From positions 5,253-69,252 of the forward strand of contig JAUWIN010000001.1 of NCBI GenBank assembly GCA_030605345.1: a stretch of DNA of 64,000 nucleotides, read 5' to 3'. Below the pieces are notes generated by a model. It saw only the letters and a list, made by a program, of their open reading frames with translations. It was not told the origin of the DNA and ran no database searches. How positions within the stretch are numbered: position 1 is the first letter of the stretch; every line of letters starts with the position of its first letter. Position numbers and translations under genes: made by a program. Shown here piece by piece: positions 721 through 40,551 of the stretch. Source of the DNA: Candidatus Brocadiia bacterium (GTDB lineage: Bacteria > Planctomycetota > PUPC01).

Positions 721-1338
721 ATGAAAGGTTACTCCGTTACGGCAATGTGCGCCATTGTGCTGGTCGCATTCTCGGGCTGCAAGCAGCAGCAGGAGGAGGA
801 AATGATTGATCTGACAGGAAAGGACGTGTTGATGGTCGTAGCCAGCAACGATTTCCGAGACGAAGAGTACCGCGAACCTGCCGAGGCGCTGGCGCGAGCC
901 AAGGCGGGGGTGGACATTGCCTCCTCCTCGAAAAAGGTCTCCACCGGCATGCTGGGCCATACCGTCACGCCGGACCTGCTGTTGTCAGAGGTGGACGTTT
1001 CCAAGTATGCGGCGGTCATCTTCGTCGGCGGGCGCGGAGCGAGCGAATACTTCGACGACCCTACGGCGCACAAAATCGCCCAAGACGCCGCCGCAGATGG
1101 CAAGTTGGTCTGCGCCATCTGCATCGCGCCTTCAACGCTCGCCAATGCTGGCCTACTGGAGGGGAAAAAGGCCACCTGCTTCCGGTCCGAGAAGGACAAC
1201 CTGACCAAGAAAGGAGCACAGGTTGTCGAGCAGGGAGTGGTTCGCGATGGCAACATCATCACTGCCGACGGCCCTGAAAGCGCCAAGGCTTTCGCTAAGG
1301 CCGTGTGCGAGGCGCTGGCGGAGAGGGAGAATAAATAG
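721..1338 (+). CDS. DJ-1/PfpI family protein (class I glutamine amidotransferase-like), predicted lipoprotein
   Basis: Start MKGYSVTAMCAIVLVAFSGC gives a signal peptide plus lipobox. The nucleophile-elbow motif AICIAP and overall DJ-1/PfpI architecture are present. A longer upstream start exists in the ORF track. Confidence 0.75.
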   Translation: MKGYSVTAMCAIVLVAFSGCKQQQEEEMIDLTGKDVLMVVASNDFRDEEYREPAEALARAKAGVDIASSSKKVSTGMLGHTVTPDLLLSEVDVSKYAAVIFVGGRGASEYFDDPTAHKIAQDAAADGKLVCAICIAPSTLANAGLLEGKKATCFRSEKDNLTKKGAQVVEQGVVRDGNIITADGPESAKAFAKAVCEALAERENK

Positions 1339-1592
1339 GCCGGCTGCGGGAACACCGAACTGCGGGGACAGGCCGCACCGAAACGCTGACAGCGAAGCCC
1401 CACCCATAACGCCATCCTTGGTTGTCAAGCCGGAGTACGCCAGCTTCACCACGGGCGCGAACATGCCTGGCTGGCGGCGTGGGGATTGACAACCGCTGAC
1501 CGAATTGCCAAAATAGAACTTCCTTGGCTGGCAGACGACCGCCAGTTGCGTCTCTAGCACCAGGCCGCAAGGCAATAGGGCTACCGGAGCAC

Positions 1593-2678
1593 ATGACAAG
1601 CTTCGCGCGCATGACCACTACATTGGCACTCAAACCGGTGGACCACGTCCCGGTAGTGGTGAGCCCGTGGGCGGCCACAACTGAGCGGTGGCGAAAGGAA
1701 GGCCATATCGGCGCCGAAGAGGATGTCGCCGAGCACTTCGGCCAGGACCTCCGCACCGGCGGATGGATCGACAGCACCGCCGATATGGATTTCGAGTCGG
1801 TCGTCATAGAGGAAACTGACGAAACTATACTCACGCTGGATGGTAATGGTGCGCAGCTCCGCCGGCACAAACTTCACGAGAGCACACCCGAGCACGTGGA
1901 CTTCGCGGTAAAGGAACGCATTGCCTGGGAGGAAAAGGTCAGGCCGCATCTTCTCGAGGTTGATCGACGCCGGATTCCGTTTGGGGCTTATCGCGAAGCG
2001 CGCCGCTCGGCCGCGGAAAAGAAACTCTTCTTCTGCTGGGAAGGGGGAGCGCCGTTTGAACAAATGTGCGCAGTCTGCGGCCACGAATATATGCTGATGG
2101 GCATGGCCACAGACCCCGATTGGGTCAGAGACATGGTGATCACATTTGCGCGCCTCAACGTTATGCACCAGGAAGTGCTCTTCGCCGAAGAGGGCCTGCC
2201 CAACGGGGTGTTCTACAACGAGGACATGGGATTCAAGTACAAGCCTTTTATGTCACCGCAGATGTACGAAGAAATCGTCCTTCCTGGCCACAAACTGCTG
2301 TTCGAAGCGGCGCACGCCGAGGGCCTGAAGGTGCTCGTGCATTCGTGCGGCTTTGTCGAGCCGCTGGTGCCGGGGCTAATTGAGGCCGGGATGGACTGTC
2401 TCCAGGCGATGGAAGTAAAAGCCGGCATGGACGTCCTCCGGCTGTTCGACCGTTTCGGCGAGCGGATTTCCTTTTTTGGAAACATCGACGTGCGCACTTT
2501 GGTCGCCAATGATCGTGCTGCGATTGAAAAAGAGCTGCTCACGAAAATTCCGCCGATCATCAATCACGGTGGCGGCTACATTCTGCATTCCGATCATTCC
2601 GAACCGCCTGAAGTCGACTACGAGACCATGCGCTTTTTCGTCGACCGCGGCCGCGAGATCGGAACGCCGAAACCCTAG
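1593..2678 (+). CDS. uroporphyrinogen decarboxylase-like (URO-D/MtaA-fold) family protein, paralog 1
   Basis: HSCGFVEPLVPGLIEAGMDCLQAMEVKAGMD, FFGNIDVRTL and a C-terminal HSDHS...EVDYETMRFFV are typical of the URO-D/methylcobamide:CoM methyltransferase-like fold. Internal start MTSFARM chosen. Confidence 0.7.
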   Translation: MTSFARMTTTLALKPVDHVPVVVSPWAATTERWRKEGHIGAEEDVAEHFGQDLRTGGWIDSTADMDFESVVIEETDETILTLDGNGAQLRRHKLHESTPEHVDFAVKERIAWEEKVRPHLLEVDRRRIPFGAYREARRSAAEKKLFFCWEGGAPFEQMCAVCGHEYMLMGMATDPDWVRDMVITFARLNVMHQEVLFAEEGLPNGVFYNEDMGFKYKPFMSPQMYEEIVLPGHKLLFEAAHAEGLKVLVHSCGFVEPLVPGLIEAGMDCLQAMEVKAGMDVLRLFDRFGERISFFGNIDVRTLVANDRAAIEKELLTKIPPIINHGGGYILHSDHSEPPEVDYETMRFFVDRGREIGTPKP

Positions 2679-2716
2679 AAACCCCACATCGGTCTGAAAG
2701 GAAAAGGAGGGATGTC

Positions 2717-3832
2717 TTGACCAAGAAACAGCGATTTCTGGCGGCGGTTCGAGGAGAAGTGCCCGACGTAGTGCCGGTGTCACCGCTTATCCACTGGCGG
2801 TTCGCCAACAAGGTGCTCGGCCGGTGGGATTGGAAGGCCGTATTCGAAGTGCATCAGATGATCGGATCGGTGCACCACCGCGGTCCAATCGGCGTGAGCG
2901 TGCATTCCTCCCTGCCCGACGGGTGTGGATCGGAGCAGCGTGAAATCAAACGCTCGCCCGATGGGCGCGTCGAGAGCGAATGGATCATCCGCACGCCCAA
3001 GCGGACCCTGCGCGGCAAGATTGAGAGGGGCCTGATCCCCCACGAACCCCTGGTGGGGAAGGCGGTGGAGTATCCCGTGAAGTCGGCGGAGTACTGGCGA
3101 GCCTACCTCGAGCTTCGGCAAGCCTGGCTGGAAAACATCACCGGCCCGGCGGTCGAACACTTCGACGAAGTGGTGAAAACGATGGGCGAGGAGGGCGTCC
3201 CGAGCGTAGCTCTCGGGCCAGCCCACAGCGCGCTGGGTGGCGTCCGGGGTATGGCTGAGTTCATCATGGATTTGCATGACTATCCGGACCTGATGGACGA
3301 ACTCTTCGAGGTCGAGCGGCAGATTACGGACAAGTGCATCGATGCGTTTCTGGCCGCGCCGACCGAAGTCGCGTGGCTCGACATCTGCTGGGCGACCGGA
3401 TCAAATCTGGGGCCGGAGCGGTTCAAACGATGGGCGCAGCCCGACGTGGAACGCGCCATGGACAGGGTGCGCGGGGTTCCGAACAAATACCTTGGCCTCT
3501 ACACCCTCGGCAGGATCCGCCACCTGTTGCCCATGTTTGCCGACGCAGGGGTGGATTTCGTCGAGACCTTCGAGCCGAACGAGGGCGACATTACCCTGGC
3601 GGAGGCCAAGAAGCTCTACGGGAAAAAGATGTGCTTGATGGGCAATTTCGACTGCACGATCCTCTCGTTCGGGACGGTAGAGGAGGCGCGGCAGGAAACG
3701 CGGCGCTGCCTGCGCGAGGGAATGGCCGACGGCGGATATGTGCTCGTGACCGGTGACGAAGTGCCCGCCGACACGAAAATGGACAGCCTGAAAGCAAGGG
3801 TTGAGACGGTCGAAGAGCACGGTCGGTACTAG
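2717..3832 (+). CDS. uroporphyrinogen decarboxylase-like (URO-D/MtaA-fold) family protein, paralog 2
   Basis: TTG start preceded by AAGGAGG (2704-2710). Motif ...KKMCLMGNFDCTIL...GYVLVTGDEVPADT; tandem with paralog 1 after a 38-nt gap. Confidence 0.7.
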   Translation: MTKKQRFLAAVRGEVPDVVPVSPLIHWRFANKVLGRWDWKAVFEVHQMIGSVHHRGPIGVSVHSSLPDGCGSEQREIKRSPDGRVESEWIIRTPKRTLRGKIERGLIPHEPLVGKAVEYPVKSAEYWRAYLELRQAWLENITGPAVEHFDEVVKTMGEEGVPSVALGPAHSALGGVRGMAEFIMDLHDYPDLMDELFEVERQITDKCIDAFLAAPTEVAWLDICWATGSNLGPERFKRWAQPDVERAMDRVRGVPNKYLGLYTLGRIRHLLPMFADAGVDFVETFEPNEGDITLAEAKKLYGKKMCLMGNFDCTILSFGTVEEARQETRRCLREGMADGGYVLVTGDEVPADTKMDSLKARVETVEEHGRY

Positions 3833-3873
3833 CTGACGTCCGCCCGGCCTTCACCCCCCAAAGGAGACCTACT

Positions 3874-5028
3874 ATGCCACAACGCTGCTTCGGTGAAGAA
3901 GAGCTGGCCAACCTGCGCGAGGTGATTGAGAGCGGCGAGCTCTGGCGCGGGGTAAGAGGTAAGTTTGTTGGCCGATTTGAGGACGAGTTCGGCCAGTGGC
4001 TGGGCCGAAAGTACGTGCTGGGGATCTGCTCAGGTACCTGCGCCGAGGAAACCGCCGTCGCCAGTCTGGGCCTGGAGCTGGGTGACGAAGTCATCTGTCC
4101 CGCAAGCGCGCCGATCTTCGTATCCTTCCCCGTTATCAGCGTGGGGTGCGTGCCGGTCTTCGCCGATGTTGACCCGCGGACGCTCATCATCTCGCCAGAA
4201 GGCATCGAGGCCCGGATCACCGAGCGCACCCGCGCCGTGCTCGTAGTCCATCTCTGGGGTACGCCGGCGCCGATGGACGAGATCATGGCCGTAGCCCAGC
4301 GCCATAACCTCAAAGTTATTGAAGACTGCGCGCAAGCCTACGGCGCTTGCCACCGAGGACGAAAGGTCGGCACCATCGGTGACGTGGCCTGCTTCAGCCT
4401 TCAGCAAAGCAAACACATCACGGCCGGGGAAGGCGGCATCATCGCCACCGATGACCCGGAAATCTATAAGCGCGCCGTGCTGTTCTCAAACGTCGGAATG
4501 CCCTGGCTCTACCAGTATGGGCTCGAGCAGCCGACGTCCGAGCCGCTGAACGGGCTGCGACGACGGGGCCATTTCGCCTTCGGCCACAACTACCGCATGA
4601 GCGAACTCCAGGGGGCAGTGATGGTGGCTCAGTTGGCCAAGTTGCCGGAGTTCAATGCCCGACGTAAAAAACTTGTCGAAATCATCGAAACTGAGTTGGG
4701 CGATGTACCCGGTGTGGAGCTGGCTCACGTCTATCCGAACACCGAGCCGAACTTCTGGATCTATCCGCTTCGCGTGCCAGAGGCGTTGGGAGACTACGCG
4801 GAGATTAACTATCTTGAGGCGGAGTTCCAGAAGATGCAGAGAACCCGCCGCACGTCACTGGGGATTCCGCTGCCGGACTACGTGCAGTACAAGCCCGGCG
4901 AGTGTCCCCAAGCCGAAGCTGCCAGCAAGGGGTTCGGTGGCATCGATGTCAGCCACGCGACAGACCCCGAAGATATGCGCCAAGCAGCGCGAAACATCCG
5001 CGAAAAGGCCGACAAGCTTTCCGGATAG
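3874..5028 (+). CDS. DegT/DnrJ/EryC1/StrS family PLP-dependent aminotransferase or dehydratase
   Basis: Family-typical stretches VLVVHLWGTPAPMDEIMAVAQRHNLKVIEDCAQAYGA and SLQQSKHITAGEGGIIATDD (PLP lysine region). Confidence 0.75.
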   Translation: MPQRCFGEEELANLREVIESGELWRGVRGKFVGRFEDEFGQWLGRKYVLGICSGTCAEETAVASLGLELGDEVICPASAPIFVSFPVISVGCVPVFADVDPRTLIISPEGIEARITERTRAVLVVHLWGTPAPMDEIMAVAQRHNLKVIEDCAQAYGACHRGRKVGTIGDVACFSLQQSKHITAGEGGIIATDDPEIYKRAVLFSNVGMPWLYQYGLEQPTSEPLNGLRRRGHFAFGHNYRMSELQGAVMVAQLAKLPEFNARRKKLVEIIETELGDVPGVELAHVYPNTEPNFWIYPLRVPEALGDYAEINYLEAEFQKMQRTRRTSLGIPLPDYVQYKPGECPQAEAASKGFGGIDVSHATDPEDMRQAARNIREKADKLSG

Positions 5029-5122
5029 ACTGTTCGGCAGGCCCAATCCCGCGCGAGCTGGGAACTGCTGATTTTACAAGAATCTGAGCGAGGCCGTCCT
5101 CGGCGCCAAACCAAAGAACAGG

Positions 5123-6559
5123 ATGGACAAAATGAGTAATCGCACAGACAGTGGTAGTGATTCGGCGGACCGGTTCGAGCCGACCGTGACATCACTTCAG
5201 AACAACTATAAGTGTCCGGAATGGTTTCGGGATGCCAAGTTCGGGATTTATCTGCACTGGGGGGTGTACTCGGTGGCGGAGCGGGCCGAATGGTACGGAA
5301 GGCAGATGTACATACCTGACGACCCGGTGTACGAGCACCACGTCAAGACATACGGGCACCCGTCCGAGTTCGGCTACAAAGATTTCATCCCCATGTGGAA
5401 AGCCGAAAAGTTCGACCCGGACCGCCTGGTGGGGCTTTTCAAGCAGGCCGGGGCCAGGTATTTCACCCCGTGTGCGGTGCATCACGACAACTTCGACCTA
5501 TGGAATTCCAAACATCATAGATGGAATTCGGTGAACATGGGACCGAAGAAGGACATCATCGGAATGTGGCGGGAGGCGACACTGAAGCACGGGCTTCGAT
5601 TTGGCGTCACCACGCATCTGGCCCGGTCTTACAGTTGGTTCAATGTCAATAAGGGCGCCGACACCGACGGGCCATACAAGGGCGTGCCCTACGACGGCAA
5701 TGATCCCGCCTATCGGGAGTTCTACTTCGAGCCGCACGACGACACCGACCACCGCCAGCCCATCAACCCGCCCGAACACTGGCGAAGGGAGTGGGCGCTT
5801 CGCATCAAAGACCTGATTGACCACTATCAGCCCGACCACCTCTACTTCGACGGCGGAATTCCGTTCCAGGGTGATGACGCGGCCAGGACAGGGCTCGAAG
5901 TCGTAGCGCACTATTACAACCAGAACGCGCGCCGGCACGGAGGTCGGCAGGAAGGCGTGATGTGCATCAAAAATTGCGCCGGGCACGGGCTTTACGTTGA
6001 CGGTATTACCACGCTCGACCTCGAGTGTGCCCGGGCCGACGACATCCAGCAGGCTCCGTGGCAGACGGATACCTCCATCGGCCCCTGGGGCTATTTGGCA
6101 GGGGCGAAGTATCGACCTGTCCGCGAGATTGTTCACGAACTCATAGACATCGTCAGCAAGAACGGGAACCTCCTTCTCAATGTCCCGCCAAAGGCAAACG
6201 GAACGCTGGACAAACAGACAGAACAAATCCTGTCAGACATCGGCCGGTGGATGGAAGTGAACGGAGAGGCGATCTATGGTACCAGGCCCTGGGGCAGGTA
6301 TGGCGAAGGGCAGCTGCGTTTCACCCGTAAGGACGACACGTTATATGTGATCGCACTCGAATGGCCCGCCGCCGGCGAAGGGCTGGCCGTGCCATCCCTA
6401 GGCGGACAGGCCGGAGCGTCGAAGGTTTCTGACGTGACCTTGCTGGGGTGCCCGGAACCTGTCGAATGGGAACAAAATGACAAAGAGTTGCGAATTGCTC
6501 CCCCCGCAGCGCCGCCGTGTGAACATGCATACTCGTTCCGGGTGAAGTTCGCCAGATAG
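5123..6559 (+). CDS. alpha-L-fucosidase (glycoside hydrolase family 29)
   Basis: N-terminal WFRDAKFGIYLHWGVYSV is the GH29 signature; 478 aa is the expected size. Confidence 0.8.
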   Translation: MDKMSNRTDSGSDSADRFEPTVTSLQNNYKCPEWFRDAKFGIYLHWGVYSVAERAEWYGRQMYIPDDPVYEHHVKTYGHPSEFGYKDFIPMWKAEKFDPDRLVGLFKQAGARYFTPCAVHHDNFDLWNSKHHRWNSVNMGPKKDIIGMWREATLKHGLRFGVTTHLARSYSWFNVNKGADTDGPYKGVPYDGNDPAYREFYFEPHDDTDHRQPINPPEHWRREWALRIKDLIDHYQPDHLYFDGGIPFQGDDAARTGLEVVAHYYNQNARRHGGRQEGVMCIKNCAGHGLYVDGITTLDLECARADDIQQAPWQTDTSIGPWGYLAGAKYRPVREIVHELIDIVSKNGNLLLNVPPKANGTLDKQTEQILSDIGRWMEVNGEAIYGTRPWGRYGEGQLRFTRKDDTLYVIALEWPAAGEGLAVPSLGGQAGASKVSDVTLLGCPEPVEWEQNDKELRIAPPAAPPCEHAYSFRVKFAR

Positions 6560-6711: not shown

Positions 6712-6740
6712 TTGACAACCGGTTCGCTGCGAATATTATA
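6712..6740 (+). promoter_or_regulatory. sigma-70-like promoter (TTGACA-N16-TATTAT) upstream of the MinD/ferredoxin ATPase gene
   Basis: TTGACA at 6712-6717 and TATTAT at 6734-6739, ~30 nt before the AAGGA RBS and the ATG at 6771. Confidence 0.4.
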
Positions 6741-6770: not shown

Positions 6771-8594
6771 ATGAAGATTGCTATTTCGAGTGGAAAAGGC
6801 GGAACAGGCAAGACTTTCATTGCGACCAACCTGGCCGCACTGCTCGCCCAACGTGGCCGCGGCGTCGTATATCTGGATTGCGACGTCGAGGAACCGAACG
6901 GCCACCTGTTCCTCAAGCCCGAGACGGAACGCACCGAACGCATGACCGTGCCCGCACCGGTCAGCATCGACGCGGACAAATGTATCGGATGCGGCAGATG
7001 TGCCGAGGTATGTCACTACAACGCCATCGCGGTGGTCAAGGACAAGGTGCTGCTGTTTGACGAATTATGCCACGCCTGCGGGGCGTGCAGCATTGTCTGC
7101 CCGGAGGGCGCGATTATCGAGGGCGACAAGGAGATTGGTCAGATCAAGCATGGCAGGAGCGGCGATATCGGCTTTCATTACGGTCTGCTGAAGACGGCGG
7201 TGGGTGGAATGTCGCCGCGCCTCATCGCCGCGCTCAAGAAATATGCCGGCGACGACATTACCATCCTGGATTCACCGCCCGGCACGGCGTGTTCCGCCGT
7301 CGAAACCGTTGCAGGCGCCGATTTGTGCCTCCTGGTTGCCGATCCTACGCCGTTCGCGGTGCACGACTTGAAGCTTGCGGTGAACATGTGCAGGCAAATC
7401 GGGCAGGAGCCTGCAGTGGTGGTCAATCGGGCAGGTCTTGATGATGCGGAACTCAGCCAATATTGCAGGAGGGCACAACTCGAGGTCGTCGGCGAGATAC
7501 CGGACAGCCGTCAGATCGCCGAGGTCTATTCCGTCGGTGACCTGGTCGTGGAAAAGTTGCCCGAGATTCGACCCTATTTCGAGAAGATTATCGAGCGGGC
7601 GCAAGCCCTGGCGGCGGCCGAGCGACCGGTGAAGACAGATTTGATCGAACCCCTGTTCCGTCCGGGCGGCGAACGCTCGAGGGCGAGAAAACCGGACCCG
7701 ACGGCGAAGAGGCCGGAAGAAGTGGTCATAATAAGCGGCAAAGGCGGCACAGGCAAAACCTCGCTTGCTGCGTGTTTCGCACAACTTGCCGCCCCGGGGC
7801 TGGTGTCTGACTGTGACGTGGACGCCGCCGACCTTCATCTCGTGCTGGACCCACAGGTACAGGAAGAGGGCGACTTCGTCGGCGGTGTGACCGTGGAAAT
7901 CGATCAGGAAAAATGCACCCGCTGCGGGAAGTGCAGGGAATCCTGCCGCTTCGATGCCATTACGCGCACTGACGACGGCCGCTACCTTGTCGACCAAGTC
8001 GCCTGCGAGGGGTGTGGTGTGTGCGAACTGGTCTGCGAAGATGACGCTGTGAAGATAGAGGACGATATCAACGGCAAGTGGTTTGTATCCGAGACGCGGT
8101 TCGGCCCCATGTCCCCCGCCATCCTGGGGCACGCGGAGGAAAACTCGGGCCGCCTGGTGACGCTGGTGCGCGATTTGGCCGCCGACCTTACCACCGCGGC
8201 ACGACAACCCGGAAATGTCCTCATAGACGGCTTACCCGGAACCGGCTGCCCGGTGATTGCCTCCGTCAGCGGTGTCCGATACGCCGTCATCGTGACTGAA
8301 CCCACCGTGTCCGGCCTGCACGACCTGCGACGGATACTCGACCTCACCCGTCACTTCAGGGTCAGGGCGGGCGTGATTGTCAACAAGGCGGACTTGAACC
8401 AGGAAATGACGGAAAAGATACGCACGGAGACCGAAGGGGTCGGCGCCGACTTGCTTGGCGAGATCGCCTATGACGATAATTTCACTCAAGCGCAGATGAA
8501 GCACAAGACACTCCTGGAGTACGATGGCGGAGAAACCGGGCCGGTGATTGCGTCGATCTGGGAGAAAATCACCAAACTGCTGAAAAAACCGTGA
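6771..8594 (+). CDS. tandem-duplicated MinD/ParA-superfamily P-loop ATPase with embedded 4Fe-4S ferredoxin domains (COG1149-like), fused dimer
   Basis: Two repeats of Walker A (ISSGKGGTGKT and IISGKGGTGKT), each followed by CIGCGRC...C..C...CP or CTRCGKC...CEGCGVC ferredoxin motifs and then a MinD-like core. Confidence 0.7.
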   Translation: MKIAISSGKGGTGKTFIATNLAALLAQRGRGVVYLDCDVEEPNGHLFLKPETERTERMTVPAPVSIDADKCIGCGRCAEVCHYNAIAVVKDKVLLFDELCHACGACSIVCPEGAIIEGDKEIGQIKHGRSGDIGFHYGLLKTAVGGMSPRLIAALKKYAGDDITILDSPPGTACSAVETVAGADLCLLVADPTPFAVHDLKLAVNMCRQIGQEPAVVVNRAGLDDAELSQYCRRAQLEVVGEIPDSRQIAEVYSVGDLVVEKLPEIRPYFEKIIERAQALAAAERPVKTDLIEPLFRPGGERSRARKPDPTAKRPEEVVIISGKGGTGKTSLAACFAQLAAPGLVSDCDVDAADLHLVLDPQVQEEGDFVGGVTVEIDQEKCTRCGKCRESCRFDAITRTDDGRYLVDQVACEGCGVCELVCEDDAVKIEDDINGKWFVSETRFGPMSPAILGHAEENSGRLVTLVRDLAADLTTAARQPGNVLIDGLPGTGCPVIASVSGVRYAVIVTEPTVSGLHDLRRILDLTRHFRVRAGVIVNKADLNQEMTEKIRTETEGVGADLLGEIAYDDNFTQAQMKHKTLLEYDGGETGPVIASIWEKITKLLKKP

Positions 8595-8663
8595 ACCGCG
8601 GGTTATTAGGGGAGTGCGGGGGCAAGTCCGTCCCAGCTGCGGAGCTGAGGTTGGAGTTAAGAA

Positions 8664-12344: not shown

Positions 12345-12422
12345 GATATACCCCGGTGTTTTTGAGTTTCGAGTTTCGGACCTGCGGAACTCGGAACACG
12401 GAACTCGAAGCTCGAAATTCGT

Positions 12423-13199: not shown

Positions 13200-13250
13200 G
13201 TCTCTTCCGTTCTCGTCGGCAATACCAGACCCCGGCGTGATGCAAACAAT

Positions 13251-14438: not shown

Positions 14439-14563
14439 TGCTTAGGATTATTCTCGCCGCGATGCGCCAAGCCATCATATGATATGATCGTCTCGGCCAA
14501 TTCCCTTGCCACTATTGTCGTCAAGGTGTCATGCCGCCAAGACGTCATTAACAAGCAATGGAC

Positions 14564-15661: not shown

Positions 15662-15668
15662 TCCAACT

Positions 15669-16337: not shown

Positions 16338-16424
16338 TATGCTGAGGCCGGCGATCGCACACTCCCGCTTATCTGGTCGTTTATTGATTGTCCTTGTTGA
16401 TTGTGTCTAATGCCTCGTCCGCGG

Positions 16425-17147: not shown

Positions 17148-17157
17148 TGCGCTGTCC

Positions 17158-18435: not shown

Positions 18436-18697
18436 TCAGATTCCACGTATCCGGTTGACGTGTCGCGTTGCTATTATAGCCTTGTGGGCATAACTTGGCA
18501 ATTGCTTGAAACCGCAGACAGCTGTTCCAAAGATTCTGCGAACTTTGCCTGGGGACATGTCCCCTTTACGCCGAGCAGTTGAGCATACGTGTTCGGGGAT
18601 ATGACGGCTCGAAAATCAAATCGCGGGTTCCGCGGCAATCGTTTCAACAATCAATCCACTCTTTCCCCATCGGACACGTCCTAACCTTCTCCACGTG

Positions 18698-20948: not shown

Positions 20949-21405
20949 TCGGAAAACGCCAGATTGCCCGAAACCAAACCCGCGGAGGCTTTTTCGCGTG
21001 TTGGAAGATCGCCCCAGCCAGCACAGAGGTCTGGAGTCCGCAACCCTCGCAGCAATCCAATCCTCAGTTCGCCAGCCAAACCGCCTGCACTCCACACCGG
21101 GTCAACAAAACACATGAGGCCAACGGAGTATTCGCGACACGCTTCCTCCATGGCAAACCGTCCTTCAATCTCCAGCAAAGTTCGCGCATAGTCCTCCGTG
21201 GCCACGGCATACTACATCTGCTGACCGCTGGGGTCAAGTACGTAGCAAGGGGACGGCGTCAAGTAAACTGTGCAACCAGGATATGCGTCCGTTCAGCGCC
21301 AGATAGAAGTCGACCTTCTTTTTCCCAGCCAACTGCGCTTTTGCTGGTGAGGCGGCGGCCATGACAACTTGATTGCTGGCGGCTAGCTCCGTAGAATTGC
21401 GGCCG

Positions 21406-22206
21406 ATGAAAACGATTGATTTCCATACGCATGCATTTCCGGACTTCCTGGCTGAGCAGGCGATCGGCGCCATTGAAGCGAGCTCGTCGCTCCAACGCTC
21501 CCACGCCGATGGCACGGTGAGCGGCCTGCTCCGCTCGATGGACACCGCCGGTATCGAGGTGTCCGTCATCGCCTCCATTGCCACTGCTGAGAAGCAGTTC
21601 GTCAGTATCCTGAACTGGTCACGCGAAATCGCGTCCGACCGAATCATCCCCTTCCCTTCCATATATCCGTTTTCCGCAGACGCCGTCCAGCAGGCGGAGC
21701 AGGTGGCCGACGCCGGCTTCAGGGGCGTCAAACTGCATCCCTTATACCAGGATTTCCAGCCTCTGAACGAACGGATGATGCCGATTTATGGCGCTATCGC
21801 CGACCGGGACCTCATCCTGCTGTTTCACTCTGGCGACGACCTCGCCTTCCTCGGCGACCACCGCTGCATGCCGTCCACCATGCTCCAGGTCCAGAAGCGA
21901 GTCCCTGGGCTGAAAATGGTGCTTTCGCACCTCGGCGGATTCTCGCAATACACCGACTTCGAGCGGCACTGCCTCGGGTCGGAAGCGTACATCGATGTCT
22001 CGTTCGGCATACCAGACCAGCCCAGCGAGATGTTCACCCACATCGTCCGCGACCACACCGCCGGCCGGGTGATGTTCGGAACCGACTCGCCCTGGAACGA
22101 CCAGAAAACCGAGATAGAAAAACTGAAGCGGGTGATTGACAAGCCCGACCTGCTGGAGGATATTCTGTGGAACAACGCGGCGGAACTCCTCGGAATCGGA
22201 CACTGA
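21406..22206 (+). CDS. amidohydrolase-2 family metal-dependent hydrolase (TIM barrel)
   Basis: IDFHTHAF (HxH), LLFHSG, LSHLGG and FGTDSPW are metal-ligand motifs of the amidohydrolase_2 family. Confidence 0.65.
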   Translation: MKTIDFHTHAFPDFLAEQAIGAIEASSSLQRSHADGTVSGLLRSMDTAGIEVSVIASIATAEKQFVSILNWSREIASDRIIPFPSIYPFSADAVQQAEQVADAGFRGVKLHPLYQDFQPLNERMMPIYGAIADRDLILLFHSGDDLAFLGDHRCMPSTMLQVQKRVPGLKMVLSHLGGFSQYTDFERHCLGSEAYIDVSFGIPDQPSEMFTHIVRDHTAGRVMFGTDSPWNDQKTEIEKLKRVIDKPDLLEDILWNNAAELLGIGH

Positions 22207-22207
22207 T

Positions 22208-23218
22208 ATGACATCAAAAGAAATCGTGAGGCGGACGCTCGAGTTCAGCCGGCCCGAGCGGCTGGCACGGACGTTGCCTGAGCCGTGGGGGAATGACTTG
22301 TGCAGCGTGGGCGCCGATACGGACGACCTCGCCGGCGGCTGGAAGAAGGTAGGTGATGAGCGTTGGGAACGCACCGACGAGTGGGGCAATACCTGGGCAC
22401 GGGTCGAAGACCACTCCATGGGTGAAGTCGCAAAGGGCGCACTGGAGAACATCAACGCAGTCGAAGACCTCCCCATGCCGCCACTGAGCGACCCGGAACG
22501 CTACGAAAATGCGGCGAAAACCATCGCCGAAAACAACGAGCACTTCATCGCCGGCGGCCTGCCCGGCTTCACCTTCAGCATGGCTCGTAAAATCCGCCGG
22601 CTCGACCAATACATGATGGACCTCCACCTCCACCGCGACAAGATCGAAATCCTCCACGACCGCATCGACGAAGTTCTGCTCGCGATGGTCGAAAACTACG
22701 ACCGCATCGGATGTGATGCAATCATAACCGCCGAAGACTGGGGCACGCAACTTGGGCTGATGATACACCCGGACCTGTGGCGCGAGATATTCAAGCCGCG
22801 GTTCAAAAGAATTTGCGACGCAGCCAGGAAACACGGAATGAAAGTCCTGCTCCACTCTTGCGGCAGGATTACAGACGTCATCCCTGACATGATAGAGGTC
22901 GGCATCGACGCGCTACAATTCGACCAGCAGCAGGTGCACGGCATCGATAACCTGGCGAGATACGCCGGTCGGGTAACTTACTGGTGCCCGGTGGACATCC
23001 AGGCAGCGCTACAGAGCGGTGACGAGGCGGTGATCCGCGGATGGGCGCGCACGCTGGTCGAGAAGCTGTGGTGCGGCGGGAAGGGCGGCTTCATCGCTGA
23101 CTTCTACTCAGATGGGGTTTCCATCGGGGTCCCGCCCGAATGGCAGGCCTGGGCCTGCAACGAGTTCGTCAAGGCAGACGCGGAAAAAGGACGAGTGGTG
23201 CAGGAAAACGGGGGCTGA
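22208..23218 (+). CDS. uroporphyrinogen decarboxylase-like (URO-D/MtaA-fold) family protein, paralog 3
   Basis: KVLLHSCGRITDVIPDMIEVGIDALQFDQ matches the conserved core of paralogs 1 and 2. Start is 1 nt after the amidohydrolase stop. Confidence 0.7.
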   Translation: MTSKEIVRRTLEFSRPERLARTLPEPWGNDLCSVGADTDDLAGGWKKVGDERWERTDEWGNTWARVEDHSMGEVAKGALENINAVEDLPMPPLSDPERYENAAKTIAENNEHFIAGGLPGFTFSMARKIRRLDQYMMDLHLHRDKIEILHDRIDEVLLAMVENYDRIGCDAIITAEDWGTQLGLMIHPDLWREIFKPRFKRICDAARKHGMKVLLHSCGRITDVIPDMIEVGIDALQFDQQQVHGIDNLARYAGRVTYWCPVDIQAALQSGDEAVIRGWARTLVEKLWCGGKGGFIADFYSDGVSIGVPPEWQAWACNEFVKADAEKGRVVQENGG

Positions 23219-23221
23219 GAT

Positions 23222-24643
23222 TTGCCAACGGTGGCGACCACGCCCGGCCCAGTTGCGAGGATTAGCCAAGTTAAAAGCGGCGCGGAGCCCTTCGCCGCGC
23301 TCTGCGCGATAGCGGACGAACGCCTCCCTTTCCTGCTCGACAGTGGCATGAGCCCCGAACGCCTCGGGCGATACTCCTTCGTAGGGTGCGAACCCTTCCT
23401 GGTGGTCCACTCGAACGGCAAGACCGTGTGGGCCGACGGCGGGCGCGCCGGCAGGAACCCCTTCGCAGTCCTTCGCCGTATGCTCAAGAAGCATAGAATG
23501 CGGCCGGCCCAACGGCCAGTCCCGTTCGCCGGCGGCGCCGTCGGCTACCTCGCTTATGACCTCGGGCGGTTCGTCGAACACCTCCCGGACAATACCATCG
23601 CCGACATCCCGCTTCCGGAGATGCACTTCGCCTTCTACGACGTGACGGCTGGTTTCGACCACCAGACCAACAGGTGGTACGTCTCCAGCGTGGACCTCGG
23701 CGTGGCCGGTGCGGCGGGGCGGCGGAAGCGGCTCGTCTCGGCCATCCGCGGCGCGCCGCCGCAGCCCAGGCTCCGGCCGGTCTCGTCCAGCGGCCTCAAA
23801 TCCAACTTCACAAAGCCCCAATACCTGCGGGCGGTCAGCCGCGCAAAGGACTACATCGCCGCGGGTGACATCTTCCAGGTCAACCTGTCGCAGCGCTTCG
23901 AGGCCGAAACTGACGCAGCCCCGCTCGAACTCTACGCCGCACTGCGCTCGGCCAACCCCGCACCGTTCGCCTGCTACCTGCCGGTGGAGGGCGGGACGGT
24001 GCTGAGTTCGTCGCCCGAGCGGTTCCTGAAAGGCACCGGCAGGCACACCGAGACCCGACCTATCAAGGGCACACGGCCTCGCCGTCCCGACGACGAGGCG
24101 TTCAACTGGCAGATGCGGCGCGAACTCCTCGCCAGCGAGAAAGACCGCGCCGAACTGGCGATGATTGTGGACCTCGAACGCAACGACCTCGGCCGCGTCT
24201 GCTCCTACGGCTCCGTGCGCGTTACCGAGCCCATCGTCCTCGAACAATATCCCACGGTGTATCACCTCGTGGCGACCGTGGAGGGCGAACTGCACAAGGG
24301 CCGCGACATCATTGTCCTGATCAAGGCGACGTTCCCCGGCGGCTCCATCACCGGCGCACCCAAAATCCGAGCAATGGAAATTATCGACGAACTCGAACCC
24401 ACCAAGCGCTCCGTGTACACCGGCAACATCGGCTACATCGGCTTCGACGGCACCGCCGACCTCAACATCGCAATACGGACGATGCTCCTCACGCGCGGCC
24501 GTGCCTACCTACAGGTCGGAGGGGGCATCGTGGCCGACTCCGAACCCCAGGCCGAATACCAGGAAACCCTCGACAAGGCCAGCGCTATGTTCCAGGCACT
24601 CGGAGCCGCCAGTAATTCAGATGGAAAAGGCATGCACTGGTGA
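23222..24643 (+). CDS. pabB: aminodeoxychorismate synthase component I (PabB) or anthranilate synthase component I family
   Basis: Chorismate-binding signatures LSSSPERFL, MIVDLERNDLGRV and GGSITGAPKIRAMEII. Its 473-aa size and lack of a TrpG neighbour favour PabB. Confidence 0.7.
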   Translation: MPTVATTPGPVARISQVKSGAEPFAALCAIADERLPFLLDSGMSPERLGRYSFVGCEPFLVVHSNGKTVWADGGRAGRNPFAVLRRMLKKHRMRPAQRPVPFAGGAVGYLAYDLGRFVEHLPDNTIADIPLPEMHFAFYDVTAGFDHQTNRWYVSSVDLGVAGAAGRRKRLVSAIRGAPPQPRLRPVSSSGLKSNFTKPQYLRAVSRAKDYIAAGDIFQVNLSQRFEAETDAAPLELYAALRSANPAPFACYLPVEGGTVLSSSPERFLKGTGRHTETRPIKGTRPRRPDDEAFNWQMRRELLASEKDRAELAMIVDLERNDLGRVCSYGSVRVTEPIVLEQYPTVYHLVATVEGELHKGRDIIVLIKATFPGGSITGAPKIRAMEIIDELEPTKRSVYTGNIGYIGFDGTADLNIAIRTMLLTRGRAYLQVGGGIVADSEPQAEYQETLDKASAMFQALGAASNSDGKGMHW

Positions 24644-24661
24644 TGCCGCTCGCAGGAGGAT

Positions 24662-25780
24662 GTGATGCCTACTTTCAGCACGGTAAAACAGCTTGTCACC
24701 GGCGCCGGGTGTTTCGAGCAACTCGGACAGTTGGCCCGGGGCCTCGGCCGGCGGGCGCTGGTCGTGACCGGCAAACACGCAATGAAAGAAGCAGGCGTCA
24801 CCGACCGCGCCTGTAACTTGCTGAAGGCGGCAGGAGCCGAGCACGTGCTGTTCGAGCAGATTGGCGGCGAACCCACCGCCGCCCAGGTGGACGCCGGCAG
24901 AAAAATGTGCGCTGAGACCGAATGCGATATGGTCGTCGGGATAGGCGGCGGAAGCGCGATGGACGCGGCGAAGGCAATCGCCGCACTCGTCCGCTCGGAC
25001 GCACCCACCGCAGAATACGTTCAGGGCCGGAAAGCTGATGCCGACAGGGTGCTTCCGTGCATTTGTGCCCCCACCACCAGCGGCACCGGCGCCGAGGTCA
25101 CCCCGAACGCCGTCATCAGCCACCCCGCCAGCACAGTCAAGGTCAGCGTACGCGGGCGGGGCGTGCTGCCCACTGCCGCACTGGTCGACCCCGACCTCAC
25201 CATCACCTGCCCGCCGGGTGTCACCGCCGCTTCCGGGATGGACGCCCTGACTCATGCGATCGAGGCCTATGTCTCCATCCACGCCACACCGGTGACGGAC
25301 GCGCTCAGTTTCCATGCCGCAAGGCTTCTGCTCAGGAACCTGCCCGCCGCGTATGCCGACGGACACGACAGGGCGGCGCGTGAGGCCTGCTCATACGCCA
25401 GCACCTTGGCCGGCATCGCACTTGCCAACGCCCGGCTGGGCGTGATTCACGGGATTGCTCATCCGCTCGGTATTCGATATCACGTCCCGCACGGGGTATG
25501 CTGCGGGGTGCTGCTGCCTGCGTCCATCCGCCTGAACCATGCCGCGGCGGTGGAGAAATACCGCTGGCTCTCGCATGTCGCGGGCGATGACATCGAGAAG
25601 GCTGTCGAGCGGATGCTTGACGCCATGAATGTCGGACGCACGCTGAGAGAATACAACATTCCGGAGCGCGATTTCGCCGCCATCACAAAGGAAAGCATGC
25701 CGTCCGGGTCGCTCAAGGCGAATCCGAAGAAGGTGACTGAGGAAGACGTCTTTCAGATCCTTCGCCAGGTCGCAGGTTAG
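24662..25780 (+). CDS. iron-containing (group III) alcohol dehydrogenase
   Basis: GGGSAMDAAKAIA plus the metal-binding histidines (HAIEAY, GVIHGIAHPLG) typical of Fe-ADH. Confidence 0.75.
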   Translation: MMPTFSTVKQLVTGAGCFEQLGQLARGLGRRALVVTGKHAMKEAGVTDRACNLLKAAGAEHVLFEQIGGEPTAAQVDAGRKMCAETECDMVVGIGGGSAMDAAKAIAALVRSDAPTAEYVQGRKADADRVLPCICAPTTSGTGAEVTPNAVISHPASTVKVSVRGRGVLPTAALVDPDLTITCPPGVTAASGMDALTHAIEAYVSIHATPVTDALSFHAARLLLRNLPAAYADGHDRAAREACSYASTLAGIALANARLGVIHGIAHPLGIRYHVPHGVCCGVLLPASIRLNHAAAVEKYRWLSHVAGDDIEKAVERMLDAMNVGRTLREYNIPERDFAAITKESMPSGSLKANPKKVTEEDVFQILRQVAG

Positions 25781-39519: not shown

Positions 39520-40551
39520 ATGACCAGCACTCGCGACCTGTTGACCACGGCACTGGACGGCGGCACCCCGGCGCAAACCCCGCTTTCCATCTATGAGTGG
39601 CTGGCGGGCGATGTAAATGATGATTGGCGCCGCTTGTTTGACCAGGGGCTCGGAATCTGCCGTCACGTCAATACTGTCAAGCACATCGAACACGGGGTCA
39701 AGGATACGGTGGAGGAGAGAGTCGAAAGCAACCGGCACTATTACACCCAGCGGAAAGAGACGCCGGTCGGTACGCTGCAGAAGGTGACCATAGACGGCTG
39801 GGGCCATGAGGACTGGATCAAAACACCCGAGGACTACAAGATTCGACAGTGGATAGTAGAAAACACTGAACTTGTCCCGCAGTATGATCAATTCGAGAAA
39901 ATCGAACAGCAGGTCGAAGATTACGCCGTCACGATTGCGACCGGTTCCCGTACCCCGGCTATGAGCATAAATCTGGACTGGGCTGGGACGGAACAATTCT
40001 GTATGGACGTGGCGACGGGGGTGGACGAATTGTTCGAACTTTACCACGTACAGAAGAAGCAATTCCTGGAGGAAACTCGCCTGATTGCCGCCGGGCCGGG
40101 GCATTTCGTCAAGTGGCTCGAAAATCTCACCGCCGGCATGCTGGGGCCGGAACGCTATGTGGACCTACTGGTGTCTGTCTATAACGAGGCCATGCCGATT
40201 CTCGAGGCAGCGGGCAAGCGCGTGATGGTCCATTATGACGGCCAGATAGGATGCCTCACCGAGCAGATCGCTTCTGCGCCGTTCCACATCATTGAATCAT
40301 TCACCGAGCCGCCGGAAGGGGATATCATGTATGACGAGAGTCGGGCGGCCTGGCCGGACAAAGCATTCTGGGCGAACATCAGCGTCGGCCTTTACGCTCT
40401 GCCCGAACCCCTCCTGCGGGACGCAGTGATTGCCAAGCGCGAGCGGGCGGGCAAGAAAGCCCTTGCCTTTGAAATTTCCGAGGACCTGCCCAAAAACTGG
40501 CAGGAGTCCGTGCCGATAGTGCTCAACACGCTGCGGGAGCTGGACACCTGA
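39520..40551 (+). CDS. uroporphyrinogen decarboxylase-like (URO-D/MtaA-fold) family protein, divergent paralog 4
   Basis: Similar length and C-terminal barrel pattern (VMVHYDGQIGCLTEQIASAPFHIIESF...ISVGLYAL) to paralogs 1-3 but more divergent. Weak call. Confidence 0.55.
   Translation: MTSTRDLLTTALDGGTPAQTPLSIYEWLAGDVNDDWRRLFDQGLGICRHVNTVKHIEHGVKDTVEERVESNRHYYTQRKETPVGTLQKVTIDGWGHEDWIKTPEDYKIRQWIVENTELVPQYDQFEKIEQQVEDYAVTIATGSRTPAMSINLDWAGTEQFCMDVATGVDELFELYHVQKKQFLEETRLIAAGPGHFVKWLENLTAGMLGPERYVDLLVSVYNEAMPILEAAGKRVMVHYDGQIGCLTEQIASAPFHIIESFTEPPEGDIMYDESRAAWPDKAFWANISVGLYALPEPLLRDAVIAKRERAGKKALAFEISEDLPKNWQESVPIVLNTLRELDT

What the first reader, a model, noticed from the sequence alone, without database searches (positions are those of the whole stretch)
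1593..6559. Apparent operon of two tandem URO-D-like (MtaA-fold) proteins, a DegT aminotransferase and a GH29 fucosidase; four URO-D-like paralogs in the window and no corrinoid partner
Four same-strand genes follow each other with 38-94 nt gaps (1593-2678, 2717-3832, 3874-5028, 5123-6559), with a DJ-1/PfpI lipoprotein upstream. URO-D-fold methylcobamide methyltransferase-like proteins normally act with a corrinoid protein, and none is nearby. Two further paralogs occur at 22208-23218 (translationally coupled to an amidohydrolase-2 gene, stop-to-start 1 nt) and 39520-40551. Linkage to a fucosidase and a sugar aminotransferase suggests an uncharacterised glycan-processing role, for example handling of methylated or otherwise modified fucosides, not tetrapyrrole or C1 metabolism. 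The density of paralogs (4 in 64 kb) indicates family expansion.
Basis: partly seen in the sequence, partly recalled or inferred. Interest (0 to 1): 0.6.

Follow-up and report, generated by a model that had tools for sequence, protein, structure and literature searches.

The report
UroD-like enzyme paired with sugar aminotransferase
The four-gene cluster is real but is a local mix of unrelated units; its only conserved part is an uncharacterised UroD-fold enzyme paired with a DegT-type aminotransferase, a pair that recurs beside sugar-degrading genes in several bacterial phyla and some archaea, with no vitamin-B12 protein nearby.

Summary
The four same-strand ORFs sit at the stated coordinates with gaps of 38, 41 and 94 nt. 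Three of the four "URO-D-like" proteins pass Pfam PF01208. The fourth is only a remote homologue of U2 (2717-3832). No B12-binding domain occurs in the 64 kb.

None of the proteins is HemE or MtaA; curated model scores are 16-56 bits against cutoffs of 235-600. They are four old, distinct orthologous groups, at most 30% identical to each other but 65-85% identical to orthologues elsewhere, so this is not a recent expansion.

The four-gene set is not conserved. U1 (1593-2678) orthologues stand alone in 80 of 80 metagenomic loci, and GH29 is linked to U2 in 0 of 51 genomes. U2 and the DegT gene are directly adjacent in 24 of 51 species genomes, in either order. These come from Armatimonadota (including the cultivated aerobe Fervidibacter sacchari), Planctomycetota, Lentisphaerota, Latescibacterota, Chloroflexota and archaea. 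Their neighbours are often glycosidases and sulfatases.

U2 lacks the His/Cys zinc ligands and has an invariant Arg-rich acidic pocket. My best guess is a corrinoid-independent two-step conversion of an anionic modified sugar; that function is inferred, not shown. Interest is moderate.

The parts
1486..1514 (+). Sigma-70-like promoter match (TTGACA-17-CAAAAT, with TG) upstream of U1
   Evidence: Consensus scan only. The next + strand match near the block is at 6712-6739, after GH29.
1593..2678 (+). U1: 361-aa UroD-fold protein from a very tightly conserved stand-alone orthologous group. It has an invariant His250-Ser-Cys252-Gly, Glu274 and His332/Asp334/His335.
   Evidence: Pfam URO-D 62.7 bits. 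More than 4000 hits, 67-76% identical in MAGs labelled Planctomycetota, Armatimonadetes and Omnitrophica. Family alignment has 81% mean column identity. His/Cys/Glu align to the MtaA (4ay7) HxC..E. AF2 pLDDT 83.5; Foldseek to HemE 3cyv E 6.6e-12 and to MtaA 2.9e-10. No U2, DegT or close GH29 near it in 80 metagenomic loci.
2717..3832 (+). U2: 371-aa UroD-fold protein without zinc ligands; the conserved partner of the DegT gene
3874..5028 (+). DegT/DnrJ/EryC1/StrS-family PLP enzyme that keeps the Schiff-base lysine, from a U2-associated subfamily with the signature SLQxSKHxxxG[ED]GG
   Evidence: Pfam 282 bits. All NCBIfam equivalogs fall below cutoff (LegC 188 vs 420, PseC 174 vs 423.5). Orthologues 56-58% identical lie next to or near U2 in Latescibacterota and Armatimonadota. 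Directly adjacent to U2 in 24 of 51 genomes. The signature is present in all 30 full-length DegT genes in the U2 loci but one (L049, SFQLNKI, 4.9 kb from U2), in both identity classes.
5123..6559 (+). GH29 alpha-L-fucosidase with the C-terminal domain, and no N-terminal signal peptide visible
   Evidence: Alpha_L_fucos 326 bits and Fucosidase_C 37 bits. The N-terminus 'MDKMSNRTDSGSDSADRF' is hydrophilic. Not linked to U2 in 51 genomes.
721..1338 (+). DJ-1/PfpI lipoprotein (context). Start inferred at the Met before 'KGYSVTAMCAIVLVAFSGC'.
   Evidence: Pfam 145.7 bits; lipobox read from the translation. A 254-nt gap and a promoter-like site separate it from U1.
21373..25780 (+). Separate conserved cluster: Amidohydro_2 (21373-22206), U3 (22208-23218, 'HSCG' type), chorismate-binding enzyme (23222-24643), Fe-ADH (24662-25780)
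   Evidence: Pfam. The same order recurs in U3 orthologue loci L062-L064 (68-73% identity); genes abut or overlap in L062/L063 and are spaced by inserted PDDEXK genes in L064.
39520..40551 (+). U4: remote U2-type homologue ('HYDG' and 'ESFTEPPEGDI'), below Pfam detection
   Evidence: No Pfam or NCBIfam hit. hhalign to the U2 family 96.7%, E 3.8e-10. 772 cluster representatives at E<=1e-3. tRNA-Ala on the minus strand at 39271-39346 separates it from galK.

Best explanation
The block 1593-6559 is a probably co-transcribed set of four cytoplasmic enzyme genes, specific to this lineage and assembled from three independent units. Unit 1 is U1, a stand-alone, extremely conserved UroD-fold enzyme with a His-Cys-Glu (plus His/Asp) metal-type site. 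Unit 2 is the conserved two-gene module of U2 plus a DegT-type PLP aminotransferase. Unit 3 is a GH29 fucosidase. The architecture is shown: only U2+DegT recurs across phyla, in either gene order, usually among exo-glycosidase, sulfatase and sugar-kinase genes, and never with a corrinoid protein. The mechanism is inferred. U2 is a UroD TIM barrel that has lost the His/Cys zinc ligands of MtaA-type methyltransferases and lacks the HemE signature. It keeps an invariant pocket of three Arg, His, Asp/Glu and Tyr residues at the C-terminal ends of the barrel strands, which fits an anionic substrate such as a uronic or ulosonic acid, or a phosphorylated or sulfated sugar. I propose that the pair carries out a corrinoid-independent two-step conversion of a modified sugar released inside the cell by exo-glycosidases. 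The PLP enzyme would interconvert C=O and C-NH2, and U2 would perform a cofactor-free acid/base step (decarboxylation or elimination) on the same molecule, feeding it into central metabolism. Confidence is about 0.85 for the architecture and about 0.3 for the mechanism.
Against: No biochemical data exist for any member. The substrate class is inferred only from conserved residues and from a heterogeneous neighbourhood. About a third to a half of U2 orthologues have no aminotransferase nearby, including the 76%-identical L148. UroD-family O-demethylases and CdmB also work without zinc (PMC13222342, PMC10418091), so losing His/Cys does not rule out methyl transfer. The best PDB sequence match of the U2 profile is CdmB, although only over the C-terminal 78 residues. 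One of the class-III neighbours is a genuine hemL, which could be coincidence or a tetrapyrrole link. The r=0.81 is confounded by shared phylogeny. Gene calls in the census are greedy ORFs, and only the 25 commonest Pfam families were shown.
Confidence: 0.5

Rival explanations
1. U1 and/or U2 are corrinoid-dependent methyltransferase-I type O-demethylases acting on methylated sugars such as methyl-fucosides, using a corrinoid protein, methyltransferase II and activase encoded elsewhere in the genome.
For: The best curated-model and PDB sequence matches are to corrinoid methyltransferases: PRK06252/MtaA_CmuA at 40-56 bits, and CdmB and MtaA. U1 and U3 keep His-x-Cys plus Glu aligned to MtaA. 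The literature says O-demethylases may replace the Cys ligands with carboxylates or lack zinc altogether (PMC10418091, PMC13222342), and U2 has Asp347 at the Cys position. A real corrinoid protein sits next to an HSCG-type paralogue in one archaeal locus (L061).
Against: There is no B12-binding domain in the 64-kb window, in 50 of 51 U2 loci or in 79 of 80 U1 loci, although the same search did detect two real ones. Characterised systems and the mlp clusters keep the corrinoid protein and activase adjacent (PMC10418091). U2 occurs in the aerobe F. sacchari (PMC11535203). The idea gives no role to the conserved aminotransferase partner. All scores are 4-10 fold below the family cutoffs.
Confidence: 0.15
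2. U2+DegT is a biosynthetic module that makes an amino sugar or aminocyclitol for the cell envelope or a secondary metabolite, as most DegT-family enzymes do. The glycosidase neighbours would then be incidental.
For: The closest solved relatives of the DegT protein are biosynthetic: perosamine synthase, 2-deoxy-scyllo-inosose aminotransferase, KdnA and ArnB. In one Armatimonadota genome the DegT partner is co-oriented with a GNAT acetyltransferase. A zinc-type alcohol dehydrogenase recurs in 8 loci, as in aminocyclitol pathways (my own knowledge).
Against: No nucleotidyltransferase, NDP-sugar 4,6-dehydratase/epimerase or glycosyltransferase is among the 25 commonest families in 108 neighbours. 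The window's own glycosyltransferase/LPS cluster (9550-21095) is on the other strand and several kb away. Neighbours are mainly hydrolases, sulfatases and kinases.
Confidence: 0.12
3. The four-gene adjacency has no shared function. U1 and GH29 merely landed next to the U2-DegT pair and are read through or expressed separately.
For: U1 and GH29 are never linked to U2/DegT elsewhere. Close relatives have other neighbours. U1 neighbours elsewhere are largely housekeeping genes such as leuA and aconitase-family genes.
Against: The spacing is tight (38-94 nt), all four are on one strand, ribosome-binding sites are present, no terminator-like hairpin lies in the gaps, and promoter-like sites occur only at the two ends. 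All four products look cytoplasmic. Fucosidase genes of a different family (GH95) flank the pair in F. sacchari and one other locus.
Confidence: 0.15
4. U2 is a divergent decarboxylase of a tetrapyrrole or other pyrrole-acetate type substrate, that is, a true functional relative of HemE.
Against: The TIGR01464 hemE score is 27.7 against a cutoff of 303. There is no RQAGR motif. hhalign against E. coli HemE gives only 11% probability, over the C-terminal part only. The family is rare (322 hits) and patchy, unlike a haem-pathway enzyme. No other haem genes occur in 108 neighbours.
Confidence: 0.05

Closest known systems
MtaA/MtbA/CmuA-type corrinoid:thiol methyltransferases and UroD-family O-demethylase/dehalogenase MT-I enzymes (MtvB, OdmB, VdmB, MtoB, CdmB)
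   Same: Same UroD TIM-barrel fold. U1 and U3 keep His-x-Cys and the following Glu aligned to MtaA. U2 has a carboxylate at the last Cys position, as described for some O-demethylases (PMC10418091).
   Different: Scores lie far below all curated cutoffs. No corrinoid protein, methyltransferase II or activase is linked in the window or at 131 orthologous loci, apart from two unrelated cases. U2 has Tyr/Leu in place of His/Cys. The conserved partner is a PLP aminotransferase, which no known corrinoid methyltransferase system has.
Uroporphyrinogen decarboxylase HemE
   Different: TIGR01464 scores 16-28 bits against a cutoff of 303. There is no RQAGR motif. The N-terminal catalytic half cannot be aligned to E. 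coli HemE. Both U1 and U2 models predict a run of beta-strands between the first helices and the barrel (about residues 53-118); whether HemE lacks this was not tested. The genomic context is glycan catabolism, not haem synthesis.
ArnA/ArnB and KdnB/KdnA logic (an oxidative or decarboxylating step coupled to a DegT-family transaminase acting on an acidic sugar)
   Same: A DegT-family aminotransferase partnered with an enzyme that prepares or consumes a keto sugar acid. ArnB and KdnA are among the closer solved relatives of the window's DegT (E 6e-44 and 2e-45).
   Different: The partner here is a UroD barrel rather than an SDR/formyltransferase or an Fe-ADH. The context is catabolic rather than LPS biosynthesis. 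This is an analogy from my own knowledge and was not tested.
Type 1 mlp (MtaA-like protein) gene clusters (Kountz & Balskus, PMC10418091)
   Same: Several UroD-superfamily paralogues from distinct old lineages are encoded close together in non-methanogens.
   Different: The mlp clusters are defined by an accompanying corrinoid protein and a reductive activase and by His-Cys-Cys sites. None of these is present here.

Membership tests
HemE (uroporphyrinogen decarboxylase) | Score at or above the curated equivalog cutoff (TIGR01464, 302.95 bits) | tested here: not met
   U1 15.9 bits, U2 27.7 bits, U3 and U4 no hit.
HemE (uroporphyrinogen decarboxylase) | N-terminal substrate-binding motif (…MRQAGR…) and alignable catalytic Asp/Tyr | tested here: not met
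   No RQAGR in any window ORF. hhalign of the U1 and U2 families against E. coli HemE aligns only the C-terminal part, at 9-11% probability.
HemE (uroporphyrinogen decarboxylase) | UroD (beta/alpha)8 fold | tested here: met
MtaA/MtbA/CmuA corrinoid methyltransferases | Score at or above curated cutoffs (TIGR01463 235 bits; NF040654 400 bits; NF041608 600 bits) | tested here: not met
   Best scores are 38-56 bits.
MtaA/MtbA/CmuA corrinoid methyltransferases | Zinc site His-x-Cys ... Cys (with Glu) | tested here: inconclusive
   U1 and U3 have His-Ser-Cys-Gly, and in U1 the Glu (E274) aligns to MtaA; there is no C-terminal Cys (U1 has His332/Asp334/His335 there). U2 has Tyr262/Leu264/Glu286/Asp347 and U4 has His-Tyr-Asp. 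Metal content was not measured.
MtaA/MtbA/CmuA corrinoid methyltransferases | Works with a cognate corrinoid protein, usually encoded nearby | tested here: not met
   No B12-binding domain in the window or in 50 of 51 U2 loci and 79 of 80 U1 loci. The positive controls L061 and L117 were detected. Whole genomes could not be searched.
UroD superfamily (Pfam PF01208) | Pfam gathering score (23.9 bits) | tested here: met
   U1 62.7, U2 90.9, U3 48.0 bits. U4 has no Pfam hit but gives hhalign 96.7% to the U2 family, so it is a member by remote homology only.
DegT/DnrJ/EryC1/StrS aminotransferases | Pfam PF01041 match and the Schiff-base lysine before GEGG | tested here: met
   282 bits. 'SLQQSKHITAGEGG'. 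The Lys is not replaced by His as it is in ColD/E1-type dehydratases (that comparison is from my own knowledge).
DegT/DnrJ/EryC1/StrS aminotransferases | Assignment to a characterised equivalog (LegC, PseC, ArnB, WecE, RfbH, DesI) | tested here: not met
   Scores of 129-188 bits against cutoffs of 375-650.
GH29 alpha-L-fucosidase | Alpha_L_fucos catalytic domain plus the C-terminal domain | tested here: met
   326 and 37 bits. A 'YFDGG' motif is present where the nucleophile Asp is expected (read; the assignment is from my own knowledge). Activity was not tested.
Operon (one transcript for 1593-6559) | Co-transcription | not testable with these tools
   Indirect evidence only: same strand, 38-94 nt gaps, ribosome-binding sites, no intergenic terminator-like hairpins, promoter-like sites at 1486-1514 and 6712-6739.

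The most novel reading that the evidence does not exclude
U2 and its orthologues are a new catalytic class within the UroD superfamily: corrinoid- and zinc-independent enzymes acting on anionic sugars. Together with a dedicated DegT-type, or occasionally class-III, transaminase they would form a previously unknown two-step route for catabolising a modified sugar (for example decarboxylation or de-etherification coupled to keto/amino exchange). The route would be shared by glycan-degrading Armatimonadota, Planctomycetota, Lentisphaerota, Latescibacterota and Bathyarchaeia.
Probability: 0.25. Interest if true: 0.7.

Novelty: new variant of a known kind. Interest (0 to 1): 0.45.

Why it matters
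"Uroporphyrinogen decarboxylase family protein" is a very common and uninformative annotation in the genomes of uncultivated polysaccharide degraders. This window shows that the label covers several old, separate orthologous groups. At least one of them (U2) has a conserved PLP-aminotransferase partner, has no corrinoid protein, and is found in a cultivated aerobe. If the pair processes a modified sugar, it would add a missing step to glycan-degradation models for Armatimonadota, Planctomycetota and Bathyarchaeia. It would also widen the known chemistry of the UroD fold beyond decarboxylating porphyrinogens and transferring methyl groups to and from cobalamin. The hypothesis is testable, because F. 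sacchari PD1 can be grown and already has substrate-resolved transcriptomes and proteomes.

Tried and rejected
1. Mapping the HemE catalytic residues onto U1 and U2 by profile alignment to E. coli HemE failed. Only the C-terminal part aligned, at 9-11% probability.

2. I tried to obtain the source contig and organism. The exact-sequence context look-up for U1 found nothing, and the cluster look-up returned no names or accessions. Taxonomy therefore rests only on best hits, which are labelled Planctomycetota, Lentisphaerae and Armatimonadota.

3. The F. sacchari paper has no supplementary files held, and its text mentions neither gene.

4. Literature searches for the UroD+DegT pairing found nothing relevant.

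5. The mlp-cluster model (PMC10418091) was considered and rejected, because it requires a corrinoid protein and an activase.

7. An unannotated 369-aa gene next to a U1 orthologue (L006) was tested as a possible U2 and is unrelated.

8. I looked for a third conserved partner of U2/DegT. No family occurs in more than 8 of 52 loci (the 51 genome loci plus the window), and those that recur (ceramidase-like, Zn-ADH, sulfatase, GH42) come mostly from related genomes.

9. The class-III aminotransferase upstream of U2 was considered as non-orthologous displacement of DegT. One case is a genuine hemL, so this remains ambiguous.

Full report
**1. The observation**

All are on the + strand and show the codon-position GC pattern of real genes in this roughly 60% GC window. 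The gaps are 38, 41 and 94 nt. AAGGAGG and AAGGAG lie 7-8 nt before the U2 and DegT starts.

Pfam confirms URO-D for U1 (62.7 bits), U2 (90.9) and U3 at 22208-23218 (48.0), in each case only over the C-terminal half of the model. It also confirms DegT_DnrJ_EryC1 (282 bits), Alpha_L_fucos plus Fucosidase_C (326 and 37 bits), DJ-1/PfpI upstream and Amidohydro_2 before U3.

The fourth "paralog", U4 (39520-40551), has no Pfam or NCBIfam match. It is connected only through U2 (BLASTP 1e-8, 25% over 311 residues; hhalign 96.7%, E 3.8e-10).

Promoter-like matches on the + strand flank the block, at 1486-1514 and 6712-6739, and no terminator-like hairpin lies in the three gaps. One transcript is therefore plausible but untested. 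None of the four products has a hydrophobic N-terminus, so I infer they are cytoplasmic.

**2. What the UroD-like proteins are not**

Against NCBI's curated models, every score is 4-10 fold below the cutoff. MtaA/CmuA-type models give 32-56 bits against cutoffs of 235-400, MtbA gives 17-31 bits against 600, and hemE gives 16-28 bits against 303. No window ORF has the HemE RQAGR motif. Profile alignment of the U1 and U2 families to E. coli HemE (fetched) aligns only the C-terminal part, at 9-11% probability.

**3. Four old lineages, two active-site types**

The four proteins are at most 30% identical to each other. U1 and U3 share 30% over 162 residues. U2 and U4 share 25%. U1 and U2 share 21% over 110 residues.

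Each one has close orthologues elsewhere.
- U1 has more than 4000 hits. The best are 67-76% identical, in MAGs labelled Planctomycetota, Armatimonadetes and Omnitrophica, and the family alignment has 81% mean column identity.
- U2 has 322 hits; the best 120 listed are 54-85% identical.
- U3 has orthologues at 65-76%.
- U4 has representatives at up to 64%.

This is a repertoire of ancient paralogues, not a recent local expansion. Related MAGs also carry several such genes close together, including five in a row in L116.

The active sites fall into two types. U1 and U3 carry His-Ser-Cys-Gly, and the His, Cys and following Glu of U1 align with the MtaA (4ay7) "HICG ... E". The C-terminal Cys of MtaA is absent; U1 has an invariant His332/Asp334/His335 there. 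In U2 the same positions are Tyr262, Leu264, Glu286 and Asp347. U4 has His-Tyr-Asp.

According to Kountz and Balskus (PMC10418091), S-methyltransferases of the superfamily use His-Cys-Cys, while O-methyltransferases replace the Cys ligands with carboxylates or with non-ligands. CdmB and the Moorella O-demethylase need no zinc (PMC13222342). The motifs therefore separate the types but do not by themselves exclude methyl transfer.

**4. What is conserved around them**

*U1.* In three distant orthologue loci and in 80 metagenomic loci with orthologues 59-74% identical, no U2 orthologue or DegT gene lies nearby. Only one locus has a distant (29-31%) GH29-like gene. Immediate neighbours are mixed: leuA and aconitase-family genes, GFO/IDH/MocA oxidoreductases, xylose-isomerase-like barrels and a few glycosidases. 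U1 is a stand-alone gene.

*U2.* A scan of one genome per species with the U2 alignment returned 51 loci. They come from Armatimonadota (including class Zipacnadia, and the cultivated Fervidibacter sacchari PD1), Planctomycetota, Lentisphaerae, Latescibacterota, Chloroflexota, and archaea labelled Bathyarchaeia, Thermoproteales and Nitrososphaerota.
- A DegT-family gene lies on the same strand within 400 nt in 24 of 51 loci (13 upstream, 11 downstream) and within 6 kb in 29 of 51.
- Of the 32 loci with at least 1.3 kb on both sides, 17 are directly adjacent.
- GH29 is linked in 0 of 51 loci, and a true U1 orthologue in 0 of 51.
- The partner DegTs fall into two identity classes relative to the window's protein (49-75% and 30-40%). 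These classes track the identity of U2 (r=0.81, n=24, confounded by phylogeny).
- Every DegT gene adjacent to U2 shares the signature S-L-Q-x-S-K-H-x-x-x-G-[E/D]-G-G with the Schiff-base lysine. The only full-length exception in these loci is L049 (SFQLNKI), which lies 4.9 kb from U2.
- No third family recurs in more than 8 loci.

Even the closest U2 relatives (75-76% identical) lack the window's arrangement. In L148, U2 sits between a GH67N/DUF4838 protein and a sulfatase. In L150 it follows a genuine hemL by 26 nt. In L053 a HemL-like class-III aminotransferase, below the hemL cutoff, sits 58 nt upstream of U2 and no DegT is present.

The conserved unit is therefore U2 plus an aminotransferase, nearly always the DegT type. 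The U1-U2-DegT-GH29 order is specific to this lineage.

**5. Context and the corrinoid question**

In F. sacchari the order is U2, then a GHL10 protein overlapping the U2 stop by 4 nt, then DegT. The three are flanked by a GH5/DUF5060 protein and a GH95.

A Pfam census of 108 flanking proteins from 37 loci gives GH42 (5-6), sulfatase (3), GH51-type arabinofuranosidase (3), GH38 (3), xylose-isomerase-like barrels (3), GH95 (2), FGGY kinases (2) and MFS transporters (2). No nucleotide-sugar synthesis genes are among the 25 commonest families. This supports a link to carbohydrate breakdown but not to fucose specifically.

For corrinoid proteins I ran jackhmmer from the E. coli MetH cobalamin domain over all six-frame ORFs of the window and 145 fetched loci, 1.56 Mb in total. 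It found only two. One is a 215-aa protein in the Bathyarchaeia locus L061, next to a different, HSCG-type UroD paralogue. The other is at the edge of L117. The search therefore detects real corrinoid proteins, and they are not linked to U1 or U2. F. sacchari is described as an aerobe (PMC11535203).

**6. The U2 pocket**

Across 46 bacterial and archaeal orthologues (39-100% identical), the invariant polar residues are R28, H46, R55, R177, D185, D222, Y262, E286, N310, E327, R330, C331, Y341, D347, E348 and Y371. D222, Y262, E286, N310 and D347/E348 fall at or just after the C-terminal ends of predicted barrel strands, which is the usual active-site face. Three invariant arginines next to carboxylates and tyrosines suggest an anionic substrate and acid/base chemistry. 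This is inference.

**7. Mechanism and rivals**

My preferred reading is that U2 and the transaminase carry out two consecutive steps on one modified, probably acidic, sugar that cytoplasmic exo-glycosidases release. The PLP enzyme would exchange C=O and C-NH2, and U2 would do a cofactor-free decarboxylation or elimination. In this genome a GH29 and the unrelated U1 were recruited alongside the pair.

DegT-family enzymes that act with a decarboxylating or oxidising partner on acidic sugars are known (ArnA/ArnB, KdnB/KdnA; my own knowledge). ArnB and KdnA are among the closer solved relatives of the window's DegT.

I put about 0.85 on the architecture and about 0.3 on the mechanism. The rivals are:
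- corrinoid-dependent O-demethylation with partners encoded elsewhere (0.15);
- a biosynthetic amino-sugar module (0.12);
- no shared function between the pair and U1 or GH29 (0.15);
- a tetrapyrrole-type decarboxylase, for which the only positive hint is the hemL adjacency (0.05).

**8. The other two paralogues**

U3 belongs to a different conserved cluster. Amidohydro_2, U3, a chorismate-binding enzyme and an Fe-ADH occur in the same order in the window (21373-25780) and in orthologue loci L062-L064. In L062 and L063 the genes abut or overlap and are followed by a cyclase-family gene; in L064 small PDDEXK genes are inserted between them. At 54% identity the U3 homologue stands alone beside a GH78.

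U4 is not in an operon with galK, because a tRNA-Ala on the opposite strand (39271-39346) lies between them. A galactokinase gene does sit directly upstream of a U1 orthologue in L135.

**9. Novelty and limits**

I found no paper on the UroD-DegT pairing. The nearest described system, the mlp clusters, is defined by a corrinoid protein and an activase that are absent here. I class the finding as a new variant of a known kind: an uncharacterised UroD-superfamily clade with a distinctive active site and a conserved PLP partner.

There are several limits. No biochemistry exists for any member. Whole genomes could not be searched. Gene calls in the neighbour censuses are greedy ORFs. Taxonomy of the source is unknown. 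The functional proposal rests on conserved residues and on a heterogeneous gene neighbourhood.

Noticed in passing
window 21373-25780; L062/L063 4199-9133; L064 3746-9272: Amidohydro_2, a UroD-like HSCG-type protein (U3), a chorismate-binding (TrpE/PabB-like) enzyme and an Fe-ADH occur in the same order in related MAGs. In L062/L063 the genes abut or overlap and a cyclase-family gene follows. This may be an uncharacterised pathway for an aromatic, chorismate-derived metabolite, unrelated to the fucosidase block.
   Followed up: partly
L150 5691-8116 (also L151); L053 6304-8640: In one lineage a genuine hemL (TIGR00713 645 bits, cutoff 527) lies 26 nt upstream of a 75%-identical U2 orthologue. 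In L053 a HemL-like class-III aminotransferase, below the cutoff, lies 58 nt upstream of U2 and there is no DegT. This could be coincidence, replacement of DegT by another aminotransferase, or a tetrapyrrole link; it is unresolved.
   Followed up: partly
L061 about 13673-15365: In a Bathyarchaeia locus, a 215-aa B12-binding (corrinoid) protein lies just upstream of a U3-like HSCG-type UroD paralogue, 2.6 kb from the U2 orthologue. This looks like a classical corrinoid methyltransferase pair sitting near the non-corrinoid U2 type.
   Followed up: no
L116 4502-11507: About five UroD-superfamily genes lie close together around a U1 orthologue in one metagenomic contig.
   Followed up: no
window 38079-40551; L135 2325-4829: galK lies upstream of U4 in the window but is separated from it by a minus-strand tRNA-Ala(GGC) at 39271-39346. 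A galactokinase homologue (42% identical) lies directly upstream of a U1 orthologue in L135.
   Followed up: partly
window 6771-9440: A 607-aa protein with two MinD/ParA-type P-loop domains, each followed by 4Fe-4S ferredoxin motifs, is followed by a TrmO-N-domain protein with a Cys-rich C-terminal extension. The strongest promoter-like match in the region (TTGACA-16-TATTAT, 6712-6739) precedes them.
   Followed up: no
window 9550-21095 (minus strand): A long envelope-glycan cluster: three GT4-type glycosyltransferases, a double Kdo/WaaP-type kinase, a GT2, a polysaccharide deacetylase, an ABC ATPase, an unusually long S26 signal peptidase (425 aa), dapA and a further Glyco_trans_1_2-family protein (19944-21095).
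   Followed up: no
window 52853-57127 (minus strand); 34652-35491; 57563-58378; 59573-60211: A 1424-aa protein with only a weak DUF748 match, two PEP-CTERM proteins and a type II secretion pseudopilin-like protein. These suggest a PVC-type or similar Gram-negative organism, but the source taxon could not be determined.
   Followed up: no
window 42613-43293 and 42653-42727: The ORF carrying the SIS-domain match overlaps a tRNA-Phe(GAA) on the same strand at its 5' end, so the true start of the SIS gene must lie further downstream. ARAGORN also calls a 95-nt tRNA-Ile at 52472-52566 that Rfam does not confirm.
   Followed up: no
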